Positions 21,901 to 24,900 of a DNA stretch of 64,000 nt are shown here, in pieces (the stretch's first letter is position 1; every line of letters starts with the position of its first letter). This DNA comes from Mobula hypostoma (lineage: Eukaryota). The stretch covers positions 94,800,001 to 94,864,000 of the forward strand of contig NC_086107.1 of NCBI RefSeq assembly GCF_963921235.1. The letters are read 5' to 3'. The notes below the pieces were generated by a model. That model saw nothing but the letters and a program-made list of their open reading frames with translations, was not told the DNA's origin and did not search any database. The position numbers were made by a program, and so were the translations under genes.

Positions 21901-24900
21901 CATGCAGACTCCCCCCACCCCATCCCTCCCAGTTCTGGCCCATTGCCCACCCCTGTTTCCTTGGCCGTCTGCAGAGGATGTGCCTTCAGCTATCTCCTCC
22001 CCCCCCCCCAACCTCTCATCATAGAACAGTACAGCACTGAAGATCCTTCAGCCTATAATGGTGTGCTGGCCCTTTAACCTACTCCAAGATCAATCTAACC
22101 ACAAGACCCGATTAAAAACTTATCACACCCTGCTGCCTGTGATAATGAATTCCACAGACTCACCACCCTCTGGCTAAAGAAGTTCCTCCTCATCTCTGTT
22201 AAACAGATGTTCTCTGTTCTGAGGCTGTGGCCTCGGGTTCTAGACTCCCCCACTGTAGGAAACATCTCCACGTCCATTTTATTGATATATTTCAATATAT
22301 AATAGGTTTCAATGGGATTTCTCCTCATTCTTCTAAACTCAAGTGAGTACAGGCCCAGAGCCATCAAACATTAACCCTTTCATTCCTGGGATAAATCTCA
22401 GGAACCTCCTCTAGACTGTCTCCAATTCCAGCATATCCTTTCTTAGCAAAGCTGCATACAGTACTAACCCTTCCCTCCCATATCGGCCTCCATTTTAATC
22501 CACAGCCTATCTAAGAGTCCCTTCAATGCCCCTAATGTATCTGCCTGTGGCACTGTGATCCACACACCCACCACCTCTGGCATTCCCCCTATATGTTACA
22601 CCTTTGACCTACCTATGGTTACCTGAGCTAGATCAGACACACTACCCCCAGGAGGGCCACCAGGTCATTCACCTTGAGTGCCTTAATGTCATCGATTTTC
22701 ACCACAAACTCGTCGCGCTCCCGGAACACGCCTTCGCCACCGCTCTCTTCATCCTCCTCGTCCGTCTGGCCGGAGATGGCCACCGACTCCTGCTTCTTGG
22801 CCAGGTGCAGGGGCCGGTGCCAGGGCTTCTTGGAGCAGATCCGGACGTAGTCCCTCTTGTCCGTGTTCTCCAGGAACTTGACGTAGAGGCGCTGGTAGTC
22901 GATCTTCACCTCATCTGGGTACTCCACATACTGGCAGAGAAAGGACAGCAGAAACCTGTCACTGGCCCAGCGCTCCCTAGCCCCGGGGGTAGGGGTGGGG
23001 GTAAGAGAATCTGCTGCGAAGGGGAGGGGAGGGGGGATGGAGACGAGGGGAGGGTGGGATGGAGACAAGGGGAGGGTGGGATGGGGACGAGGACGAGGGG
23101 AGGGTGGGATGGGGACGAGGACAAGGGGAGGGTGGGATGGGGACCAGGGGAGAGTTGTGGAGGGAGAATGAGGAGGGACAATGAGGACATGAAGGAGGAC
23201 GAGAATGAGGGGAGGAGAATGGAGGTGGTAATTGGGGGAGAGGAGGGGGTGAGGGATGAAGAGCTGTGGTTTTGAACACAGCAGTAAGGGGTGAAACAGA
23301 GGTGAGGTAAAAAGCAGGGAATGGAGCCAGAGGACAGCATGCAGTGTTATGAATGGTAGGAGGTTTGGGGAGGGACTGGAGCACGGGATCTCAGCTGGGG
23401 TGGGGTGGAGTGGGGGGGTAGAAAGAGTCTCACCTGGGTGCTGGAGGCGAAGTGCCGCCTGCCTTCCCGTACCTCGGGCACGAACCGCTGCAGTGAGGCC
23501 TTCTGCACGCGCCAGATGGGGGGCGGCTCCGTCCCGTTCTGCATGGCCACCTGTGGCAGAGTGGGGCGGGGGGAACATCAGATATCAGGGAACTGGGCCC
23601 CTCTTCCAGCCCACTCCCTGCGACAGGCCAGCCCACCCACAGGACCGCACAGTGCCCACCCTCCAGCCTGTACCGGCCACAACAGACCCCAGCCGGCCGC
23701 ACTGTCCAGTCACAGGGACGGGACTGAGTGAGGGGTGAGCATTTGGTCACAGGATGTGGGTCTGGGTTGGTCAGGTGATGAATGTTAATGCTGACACTGA
23801 CCTCTCCCTCATTGCTTTGAAATCACCCATCACCCAGCAGACTTACTCCACCCAAAGTAAGTTGAGAGCTGTCCGTGATAATATGCTCATTTTAATTAAA
23901 AATTTATTTCATCAGTCAAACTTAAACTTCTCTGCACCCAAATCTCCCGTATCTCCTCTCCCATCAGGTAGAAGGTACAAAAACTGCAGAACATGTCCCA
24001 TTAGACATAAGGATAGCTTCCACCTCGCTGATATCCGACTGTTGAACGGACCTGCCCTGTGCCAGCTCTGGATCTCACAATTGAACCCTGTTTAATCCCC
24101 ACTTTGAGACACTTCAAGGTTCAGGAACAGCTACTTTCCTGGCACTATCAGGTTCTCGAACTGACCTGCACAACCTCCACCCTACCTGAACGATAGGACA
24201 CTATGGACTTCTCTTCAATGGTGTCTGGTTGTTGCATGAAGACTTTGCTACTAAGCTCACTGGAGCAGGATTCGGCCGTTCTGTCCATTGAATCTGTTCT
24301 GCCATTCCATCACAGCTGATTTATTATCTCAACTCCTTTCGCCTGCCTTCTCCTCATAACCTTTGACACCCTTACTAATCAATAATAAGTACTTTATTGA
24401 TACCGGGTAGGAAATTATTTCATCAGAGCAGCAACATTTAAAAACACACTTAGCTGTGTGCAAACTTAATAATAAAGTACAGAATAATAATATACACAAT
24501 AATTTACAACTGTGCAATCATAACGTACTAAATAATAAAACAGAGACTATTGTACTATGATGTGTGTTCTTCTGTCACACAAAGATGGACTGTTGTATAT
24601 GCTTATTGGTTTAGTAGGAAAGATTTTCTGTAATGATCCTGTGACTAGCGGAGCTGAACAAGTCTGTTCGAAAGGGTGCTCCGCTGCTTATTCAGTAGCT
24701 CATGTGCCTGATTGTCCATAATGGATAACAGTTTGTTTAGTGACCTCTTCTCAAAAGAGTCTGGGTTGTAGACAAGGACGGATCCAGGCTTTTTGATGAG
24801 TTTATTTAGTCACTTTGCATCACCAGCACCAATGCTGCTCCCCCAACATAAAGCAGCAAAGAAGACAGCACTCGCTGCAACAGGCTGGTAAAAGATCTCC

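What the first reader, a model, noticed from the sequence alone, without database searches (positions are those of the whole stretch)
22673..22930. Chimeric exon made by exon-to-exon fusion at the duplication breakpoint
Seen: one 258-nt exon starts like exon 19072-19205 (acceptor through KKPWHRP) and continues with no intron into sequence matching the 3' end of exon 28669-28979 ([12 protein letters not shown] through the donor). The switch is at about 22810, at a Pro present in both parents (HRP|QQ and PSP|VK). Inference: both breakpoints of the genomic tandem duplication fell inside coding exons and in frame. This created a new exon and placed the two domains head-to-tail with almost no linker. 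Breakpoints in introns would be expected far more often given how much longer the introns are.
Basis: partly seen in the sequence, partly recalled or inferred. Interest (0 to 1): 0.7.

Follow-up and report, generated by a model that had tools for sequence, protein, structure and literature searches.

The report
Fused exon from ancient PRR12 duplication
This 258-base exon is the seam of an ancient in-frame tandem duplication inside the chromatin-regulator gene PRR12; the duplication gives cartilaginous fishes two copies of a conserved 125-residue module, and the exon is spliced into the mRNA whole.

Summary
Exon 22930-22673 (minus strand, 258 nt, AG/GT, phase 0/0) is 77% identical in its 5' part to exon 19205-19072 and 76% identical in its 3' part to the end of exon 28979-28669. 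The switch lies at codons 40-43.

The gene is PRR12. Bony-vertebrate PRR12, QSER1 and an amphioxus relative carry one 125-aa module encoded by three exons (A, B, C). All 11 cartilaginous-fish PRR12 proteins I recovered, chimaera, rays and sharks, carry the junction [13 protein letters not shown]. The nine full-length ones have two modules of exactly 125 aa that abut.

Both copies keep introns at the same two codon positions, so DNA was duplicated, not a cDNA. A whole-exon A-B-C duplication would shift the frame (intron phase 2 meeting phase 1), so only a junction inside exons reads through.

Slowly evolving bony vertebrates have Arg-Pro-Leu at both parental sites, which suggests microhomology. 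Spliced contigs from four runs of three organisms contain the exon intact.

A tree joins the two copies (99/95), which places the event on the cartilaginous-fish stem. An AU test does not reject an older origin (p 0.22).

The duplicated module is not Pfam DUF4211; it has no Pfam match and no known fold. This is a well-documented example of a known mechanism and is of moderate interest.

The parts
28669..28979 (-). PRR12 exon A. It holds a Pro-rich spacer, then the first 46 codons of module copy 1 (28806-28669: VKLAKPQDS...[10 protein letters not shown]). The intron before it is phase 1 and the donor is phase 0.
   Evidence: contig pieces 28667-28979 in 4 of 4 runs
23434..23550 (-). Exon B, 117 nt, the middle 39 codons of copy 1 ([39 protein letters not shown]), AG/GT, phase 0/0.
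   Evidence: a gap of the fitting length in the spliced contigs
22811..22930 (-). 5' part of the junction exon. These are the last 40 codons of copy 1 (YVEYPDEV...KKPWHRP), homologous to exon C' 19205-19086.
22673..22810 (-). 3' part of the junction exon. These are the first 46 codons of copy 2 (LHLAKKQES...[10 protein letters not shown]), homologous to 28806-28669.
20380..20496 (-). Exon B', 117 nt, the middle 39 codons of copy 2 ([39 protein letters not shown]), AG/GT, phase 0/0.
   Evidence: a 117-letter gap in the spliced contigs
19072..19205 (-). Exon C', 134 nt. It holds the last 40 codons of copy 2 ([19 protein letters not shown]...KKPWHRP), then QQSL and 2 nt of a split codon. The intron after it is phase 2.
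   Evidence: contig pieces 19071/19072-19205 in X2 and X14
30028..30551 (-). The PRR12 exon upstream of exon A, directly joined to A in the spliced contigs.
35097..38606 (-). The large Gln/Pro/Ser-rich PRR12 exon with the AT-hook-like GRPRIRP / [12 protein letters not shown] stretches. Context only.

Best explanation
Exon 22930-22673 is the junction exon of an ancient tandem duplication of genomic DNA inside PRR12. In the single-module ancestor, a 125-codon module was spread over three exons: the end of A, all of B, and the start of C. A segment running from inside exon A (just before ...LHLAKKQ) to inside exon C (just after ...KPWHRP) was duplicated head to tail. The 5' part of exon C, with its acceptor, thereby became joined in frame to the 3' part of exon A, with its donor. 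The result is one new 258-nt phase-0/0 exon and a protein with two abutting modules. The join probably formed at a short microhomology encoding Arg-Pro-Leu that was present at both parental sites (inferred). The event most likely happened on the stem of cartilaginous fishes, after their split from bony vertebrates and before the chimaera/elasmobranch split. Since then both copies have been kept under purifying selection. Copy 2 stayed almost unchanged; copy 1 diverged early and was then conserved. The exon is spliced as one piece into the mRNA. What the second module does is not shown. The module is a conserved mostly-beta unit of a nuclear, chromatin-associated protein family, so my inferred reading is that the duplication doubles or diversifies a binding surface.
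For: Shown:
- Chimeric homology at the nucleotide level, E 3e-25 and 5e-23, and unique in the genome.
- Correct splice sites and phases.
- The gene is PRR12. The window's 250 module residues are identical, 250 of 250, to P0073, which a source names PRR12-like.
- The junction [13 protein letters not shown] occurs once in each of 11 of 11 cartilaginous-fish PRR12 proteins.
- 9 of 9 full-length ones have two units of exactly 125 aa that abut.
- 63 of the 65 hits to the exon carry its two halves in reverse order, about 40 aa apart, as one module.
- None of the 150 listed representatives (of 157 hits) matches both halves of the tandem profile.
- Introns interrupt both copies after codons 46 and 85, phase 0, so this was not a retro-copy.
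- The intron before A is phase 1 and the intron after C' is phase 2, so a whole-exon duplication would shift the frame.
- Copy 1 vs copy 2 in the window: 73.6% nt identity, 85 of 125 aa identical, dN 0.20, dS 1.07, dN/dS 0.19.
- Tree rooted on QSER1: copies 1+2 form one group at 99/95, copy 1 is a clade at 100/100 with a stem of 0.31, and copy 2 branches are near zero.
- Arg-Pro-Leu is found on the N side in 24, on the C side in 17 and on both in 14 of 61 non-cartilaginous PRR12-type proteins, among them Latimeria, a turtle and Erpetoichthys.
- Spliced contigs of 4 of 4 runs laid (3 organisms, 3 studies) hold 22673-22930 as one 258-letter piece, between gaps that fit the 117-nt exons B and B' (table 8).
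Against: - The AU test does not reject trees in which copy 2 (or copy 1) groups with bony-vertebrate PRR12 (delta lnL 5.85, p 0.224). The timing on the cartilaginous-fish stem is therefore favoured, not proven. Early gene conversion between copies could also mimic their grouping.
- No residual similarity remains between the introns of the two units apart from transposon fragments. Duplication of the introns is thus inferred only from their conserved positions and phases.
- The microhomology is inferred from proteins of other lineages. In the window itself only the Pro codon is shared by both parents, and 47 of 61 outgroup proteins lack Arg-Pro-Leu on at least one side.
- I could not inspect exon-intron structures of other cartilaginous fishes.
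- The runs laid are not on record as RNA; their RNA nature is inferred from the exon-to-exon joins.
- One predicted protein (P0005) lacks exons B', C' and the next exon, so isoforms without a complete copy 2 may exist.
Confidence: 0.8

Rival explanations
1. Two-step origin. A tandem duplication with breakpoints in introns copied whole exons A, B and C. A later deletion or intron loss then removed the end of exon C1, the new intron and the Pro-rich start of exon A2, fusing them.
For: A deletion between two Arg-Pro-Leu microhomologies would give the same product.
Against: The intermediate would be out of frame: the donor after C is phase 2 and the acceptor of A is phase 1. In people, by the abstract of PMC11050278, PRR12 haploinsufficiency causes disease. 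This path needs two rare events instead of one. No lineage with an intermediate was found: 11 of 11 cartilaginous-fish proteins have the finished junction. A clean intron loss by recombination with a cDNA would not remove the ~4 C-terminal and ~57 N-terminal exon codons that are missing.
Confidence: 0.07
2. Same mechanism, older date. The duplication arose in PRR12 of the common ancestor of jawed vertebrates, and bony vertebrates later collapsed the two copies into one by unequal crossing-over.
For: The AU test does not reject copy 2 + bony vertebrates, or copy 1 + bony vertebrates, as one group (p 0.224). Copy 2 is very close to the bony-vertebrate module. Collapse of tandem repeats by unequal recombination is mechanistically easy (general knowledge).
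Against: The best tree joins copies 1 and 2 at 99/95 to the exclusion of 11 bony-vertebrate modules. The two copies share residues that differ from both bony-vertebrate PRR12 and QSER1: Met in LAMQ, Arg in E[IV]R[DE]G, and Asp in KIDDIK. QSER1 and the amphioxus relative have one module. This reading needs one more event.
Confidence: 0.12
3. Artefact or non-gene. Either the arrangement comes from a mis-assembly, or the 258-nt ORF is a pseudo-exon that is not used.
For: None found.
Against: Spliced contigs from four runs of three organisms carry the same order A-B-junction-B'-C', with 0 differences in the two runs of organism A. The same protein architecture appears in gene models of 10 other species. 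dN/dS is 0.19.
Confidence: 0.01

Closest known systems
PRR12 / QSER1 family of vertebrate nuclear proteins (bony-vertebrate PRR12, e.g. Latimeria P0013, human P0083)
   Same: Same gene by best hits and collinear exons: the N-terminal conserved region, the large low-complexity exon with AT-hook-like stretches, the 125-aa module, and then Pfam DUF4211 at the C-terminus. Copy 2 is 82-86% identical to the bony-vertebrate module, estimated from the identities to the first row of alignment A1.
   Different: Bony-vertebrate PRR12 and all QSER1 examined have one module encoded by exons A, B and C. Here, and in all 11 cartilaginous-fish PRR12 proteins, there are two modules and an extra exon pair (B plus the junction exon).
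In-frame internal tandem duplications with breakpoints inside exons (the kind known from somatic FLT3-ITD in leukaemia; recalled, not tested here)
   Same: Head-to-tail duplication of a gene segment whose junction lies in coding sequence and keeps the frame, often at short microhomology.
   Different: This one is germline, spans two introns (about 3.7 and 6.0 kb per unit today) and duplicates a whole protein module. It has been fixed and conserved across chimaeras, rays and sharks.
Domain duplication by duplication of whole, phase-compatible exons (classical exon duplication or shuffling; general knowledge)
   Same: The outcome is a tandem repeat of a protein module with introns at matching positions in both repeats.
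   Different: The unit boundaries do not coincide with exon boundaries. The flanking introns have incompatible phases (1 and 2), so whole-exon duplication could not have worked. Instead a new chimeric exon was created.
Invertebrate proteins with tandem arrays of the module's core (Homalodisca P0303; unnamed P0266 and P0288)
   Same: The ~65-aa core (..F[VL]V.. P[IL]W[RK].. LQK[FY] .. Y..[IV].VK..) recurs 2, 6 and 4 times in these proteins.
   Different: These are weak matches (per-repeat scores 8-25 bits) in proteins otherwise unrelated in layout. They lack the helix between the first strand and PIWR. They are independent amplifications, not the same event.

Membership tests
PRR12 orthologue | Best full-length sequence matches are proteins named PRR12, collinear over the whole gene | tested here: met
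   tblastn of P0005 and P0013 onto the window gives collinear minus-strand exons from 43698 to 3868. The top hits are named proline-rich protein 12. 250 of 250 module residues are identical to P0073.
PRR12 orthologue | C-terminal Pfam DUF4211 (PF13926) | tested here: met
   P0073 residues 1861-1974 score 57.2 bits against a cut-off of 27. The corresponding exons 14086-13961, 9641-9510, 5553-5383 and 3981-3868 lie in the window.
DUF4211 as the duplicated unit (the natural guess) | The duplicated residues fall inside the Pfam DUF4211 match | tested here: not met
   The duplicated units are P0073 residues 1538-1787, while the DUF4211 match is 1861-1974. The exon translations have no Pfam family, apart from one chance-level hit at E 0.13.
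DNA-level internal tandem duplication | Two adjacent units of equal length in the same orientation, with no inserted residues | tested here: met
   125 + 125 aa, abutting, in 9 of 9 full-length cartilaginous-fish proteins. hmmsearch finds two module matches at 1539-1662 and 1664-1787.
DNA-level internal tandem duplication | Introns at homologous positions and phases in both units (this excludes insertion of a spliced cDNA) | tested here: met
   In both units introns follow unit codons 46 and 85, phase 0, AG/GT.
DNA-level internal tandem duplication | Residual sequence similarity between the duplicated introns | tested here: not met
   Only the B exons and transposon fragments match between the units. 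This is expected for an event older than the chimaera/elasmobranch split, so it is weak evidence against the duplication.
DNA-level internal tandem duplication | The two copies are each other's closest relatives | tested here: inconclusive
   The ML tree joins them at 99/95, but the AU test does not reject the alternatives (p 0.224).
Royal-family / SH3-like beta-barrel reader domains (Tudor, chromo, KOW): a lead only | Structural match of the module to a solved barrel domain | tested here: inconclusive
   In the model of P0004, copy 2 (residues 111-200) has pLDDT ~90, with one helix and six or seven strands. Foldseek on the whole model gave nothing at E <= 0.001. The VIA-align list was filled by the helical C-terminal domain. 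A profile search of PDB sequences gave only uL24 at E 0.1.

The most novel reading that the evidence does not exclude
The 125-aa unit is an unrecognised, ancient (bilaterian) beta-rich binding module of the PRR12/QSER1 chromatin-regulator family, comparable in role to Tudor- or chromo-like readers. On this reading, cartilaginous fishes converted PRR12 from a one-module to a two-module (bivalent) protein by a single microhomology-mediated intra-exon duplication. Copy 1 then acquired a new specificity (long stem branch, followed by conservation). All four internal exons of the repeat are phase 0/0. Skipping B plus the junction exon, or the junction exon plus B', would therefore give back a one-module protein in frame, so splicing could switch between the two forms.
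Probability: 0.2. Interest if true: 0.6.

Novelty: new member of a known kind. Interest (0 to 1): 0.4.

Why it matters
It is an unusually clean natural example of how a protein module is doubled when exon phases forbid ordinary exon duplication. One rearrangement with both ends inside exons made a new chimeric exon, and that exon has been kept in every cartilaginous-fish PRR12 I could examine, from chimaera to rays.

It gives a discrete molecular character for cartilaginous fishes.

It also draws attention to a strongly conserved 125-aa region of PRR12/QSER1 that lies outside the only annotated domain (DUF4211). Both genes are linked to human developmental disorders (abstracts and passages of PMC11050278 and PMC12648955). 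The natural one-module versus two-module contrast offers a handle for studying what that region does.

The mechanism itself, in-frame internal tandem duplication, is well known.

Tried and rejected
- Pfam on the three exon translations gave no family; one chance hit, PhnJ, at E 0.13.
- Earlier notes of this scan held nothing for this place.
- tblastx and blastn between the introns of the two units matched only transposon fragments and the B exons.
- My first regular expression for cutting out modules found nothing, through an error of mine; I replaced it.
- AlphaFold2 on the 250-aa tandem with 13 near-identical rows gave mean pLDDT 40.4 and is unusable.
- A whole-protein alignment with P0004 first gave a usable model: mean pLDDT 74.8, copy 2 at about 90. 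Its fold searches did not identify the module. Foldseek PDB had 0 matches at E <= 0.001. The VIA-align wide rows all fall on residues 272-430, the helical C-terminal domain, with best Z 7.5, which is within the noise range for helical models.
- The ESM Atlas search returned no usable hit.
- A profile search of PDB sequences gave only ribosomal uL24 at E 0.1-0.2.
- Complex prediction of the copy 1 core with the copy 2 core returned no answer (score 0.00; the alignment was not used; the fold was uncertain). This counts neither for nor against contact.
- The look-up of sequencing runs listed no holder on record as RNA. The four runs laid nevertheless contain exon-to-exon joined contigs.
- The joint table was cut (984 rows not shown) and does not list the PRR12 splice joints, so I read them from table 8. 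Exon-skipping isoforms could not be looked for.
- The AU tests could not settle the date.
- Literature: one search was badly framed and useless. 'PRR12' + 'shark' found 4 papers. I read only the PRR12 passages of the elephant-shark Pax6 paper, which mention it as a synteny marker. By their listed titles the other three are on unrelated subjects.
- In the full-text library searched I found no report of this duplication. Supplements were not opened.
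Full report
**Observation.** The finding lies on the minus strand. Exon 22930-22673 is 258 nt (86 codons). An AG precedes it at 22932-22931 and a GT follows at 22672-22671.

A blastn of 22600-23000 against the whole window gave exactly two non-self matches:
- 22806-22941 vs 19081-19216: 77.2% over 136 nt, E 3e-25.
- 22671-22804 vs 28667-28800: 76.1% over 134 nt, E 5e-23.

The same three places are the only matches in the 3.48-Gb assembly.

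Codon by codon, the exon follows exon 19205-19072 through codon 40 (..K K P W H R P). It follows the end of exon 28979-28669 from codon 43/44 on (L A K K Q ...). Between them is an ambiguous zone of three codons.

**The gene.** Protein searches with the exon, and with a partial catshark protein, identify proline-rich protein 12 (PRR12). tblastn lays the sawshark and coelacanth proteins collinearly on the minus strand from 43698 down to 3868.

The relevant exons are:
- A: 28979-28669
- B: 23550-23434 (117 nt)
- junction exon: 22930-22673
- B': 20496-20380 (117 nt)
- C': 19205-19072

All have AG/GT. The 250 residues they encode are identical to a protein that a source names PRR12-like of Mobula hypostoma (P0073).

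**What is duplicated.** Bony-vertebrate PRR12 (coelacanth, turtle, human, bichir, catfish and others) and QSER1 carry one unit of 125 aa. It reads LHLAKKQE..acidic stretch..[13 protein letters not shown]...[12 protein letters not shown]...[11 protein letters not shown]...KPWHRP.
- In 63 of the 65 proteins hit by the junction exon, its two halves match in reverse order, about 40 residues apart, as the start and end of that single unit. Only two, both sharks, match it contiguously.
- A second search recovered nine full-length cartilaginous-fish PRR12 proteins: Callorhinchus, Mobula, Pristis, Narcine, Heptranchias, Mustelus, Chiloscyllium, Rhincodon and Heterodontus. All nine have two units of exactly 125 aa that abut with no inserted or lost residue.
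- The string [13 protein letters not shown] occurs once in each of 11 of 11 cartilaginous-fish proteins.
- A search of 1.84 billion representatives with the tandem profile found only 157 proteins at E <= 0.001. None of the 150 listed matched across both halves.

The duplicated unit is not Pfam DUF4211. That domain matches residues 1861-1974 of P0073, about 75 residues downstream of the repeat. The exon translations themselves match no Pfam family. Two papers whose passages I read describe DUF4211 as the annotated conserved domain of the family, at human PRR12 1826-1951 (PMC11050278; PMC12648955). The module, human residues 1546-1670 by my extraction, is not mentioned in the passages I saw.

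**Mechanism.**
- Both units in the window are interrupted by introns after unit codons 46 and 85, both phase 0. Genomic DNA including introns was therefore copied, not a spliced cDNA.
- The intron before exon A is phase 1 (the exon is read from its third base). The intron after exon C' is phase 2 (134 nt). A duplication of whole exons A-B-C would therefore splice out of frame. Only a junction inside the exons gives a readable product. This explains why an a priori unlikely exonic junction is the one we see.
- In slowly evolving bony vertebrates the residues before the unit are ..R-P-L-HLAKKQ and those after it are ..WH-R-P-L-Q. Arg-Pro-Leu is present on the N side in 24, on the C side in 17 and on both in 14 of 61 PRR12-type proteins outside cartilaginous fishes.
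- The junction reads [11 protein letters not shown]. The crossover can thus be placed anywhere within up to about 9-11 shared bases. This is an inferred microhomology; in the window itself only the Pro codon is still shared by both flanking copies.
- Apart from the B exons and transposon fragments, the introns of the two units no longer resemble each other.

**Age and selection.** A maximum-likelihood tree of 35 modules rooted on QSER1 gave these groupings:
- The 11 bony-vertebrate modules fall in one group (90/79).
- The 18 cartilaginous-fish copies fall in another (99/95).
- Within that group, copy 1 forms a clade (100/100) on a long stem (0.31).
- Copy 2 sequences have near-zero branches.

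The copies also share residues that differ from both outgroups: Met in LAMQ, Arg in E[IV]R[DE]G, and Asp in KIDDIK. This places the event on the cartilaginous-fish stem, before the chimaera/elasmobranch split. By recalled dates, not tested here, that is on the order of 400 million years ago.

The AU test does not reject the alternatives (delta lnL 5.85, p 0.224). An older origin, with later collapse in bony vertebrates, therefore remains possible.

Within the window the copies are 73.6% identical in DNA and share 85 of 125 residues. dN is 0.20, dS 1.07 and dN/dS 0.19. Together with the conservation of copy 1 from chimaera to ray, this shows purifying selection on both copies.

**Transcripts.** Four runs that hold the exon were laid on 18900-30700. 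They are not on record as RNA.
- Each run has one long contig (3.5-6.6 kb) containing 30028-30551 and 28667-28979 directly joined, then a gap of 115 letters, then 22673-22930 as a single 258-letter piece.
- The 115-letter gap fits exon B, because the last two aligned letters are shared with the donor.
- In X2 and X14, 117 further letters (exon B') and then 19071/19072-19205 follow.
- Differences from the window in these pieces: 0 in the two runs of organism A; 2, 6 and 11 in the three pieces listed for organism B; 5 to 21 per piece in organism F (table 8).

These exon-to-exon joins show spliced molecules in three organisms from three studies. The junction exon is used whole in them. The joint table was cut, so I could not look for minor isoforms. 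One predicted sawshark protein lacks B', C' and the next exon.

**The module itself.**
- Folding the 250-aa tandem with a shallow alignment failed (pLDDT 40).
- A whole-protein alignment headed by the 430-aa catshark fragment gave mean pLDDT 74.8. In it, copy 2 (residues 111-200) has pLDDT about 90: a strand, a 13-residue helix, then six further strands with a short helix. The preceding ~30 acidic residues are coil. The DUF4211 region is a confident helical bundle.
- Fold searches did not identify the module. Foldseek gave nothing at E <= 0.001. The VIA-align list was taken up by the helical domain. A profile search of PDB sequences gave only uL24 at E 0.1.
- So 'almost no linker' holds for the seam, but the acidic coil at the start of each unit separates the folded cores.
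- Distant relatives exist. An amphioxus PRR12-like protein has one module. A leafhopper protein has two weak copies of the ~65-aa core, and two unnamed proteins have six and four.

1. The unit is not DUF4211.
2. Exon-phase incompatibility explains the exonic junction.
3. The event is ancient and shared by all cartilaginous fishes sampled.

It is a new, well-documented instance of a known mechanism (in-frame internal tandem duplication) and is of moderate interest.

Still open are the exon structure in other cartilaginous fishes, the exact date, the module's fold, and what the second copy does.

Noticed in passing
window 15861-17013: A 33-nt tandem repeat with 36.8 copies and 84% matches. It is C/A-rich on the plus strand and sits in the PRR12 intron between exon C' (19205-19072) and the next exon (15758-15549). 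It gives long spurious ORFs in several frames.
   Followed up: partly
window 18045-18563 (+), with similar ORFs at 10580-10945 (+) and fragments at 17433-18067: Repeated transposon-like ORFs in PRR12 introns carry a ...[21 protein letters not shown]... stretch. One gives a weak GIY-YIG hit (E 3.4e-4, 21.3 bits, below the cut-off of 22.6). This may be remains of a Penelope-like element (recalled, not tested).
   Followed up: partly
P0005 (protein a source names PRR12-like, Pristiophorus), residues ~1713-1730: This predicted protein goes from the junction exon, through 17 unrelated residues, straight to the DUF4211 region. It leaves out exons B', C' and the next exon. It is either a real isoform with an incomplete copy 2 or a gene-model error.
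   Followed up: no
P0303 (Homalodisca), P0266 and P0288 (unnamed), P0305 (Branchiostoma): The core of the module (~65 aa) is older than vertebrates. It occurs once in an amphioxus PRR12-like protein and 2, 6 and 4 times in three invertebrate-type proteins, so it has been amplified in tandem more than once.
   Followed up: partly
window 28806-28669 versus the other module exons: The copy 1 part of exon A has GC3 of 0.61. All other parts of both copies have 0.80-0.93. This is a local difference in base composition between the oldest exon and the exons nearer the junction.
   Followed up: no
P0004 residues 285-430 (window exons 14086-13961, 9641-9510, 5553-5383, 3981-3868 and beyond): The DUF4211 region is predicted as a confident all-helical bundle (pLDDT mostly 85-96). 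Its best structural matches (alpha-catenin, PA28; Z 7.5-7.2) are within the range the tool calls common for helical models.
   Followed up: partly
window 36001-38000: The large PRR12 exon is very GC-rich here (0.69). It encodes long Pro/Gln/Ala runs that align poorly with the sawshark protein (70.8% over the whole exon), so its low-complexity content appears to be lineage-specific.
   Followed up: no
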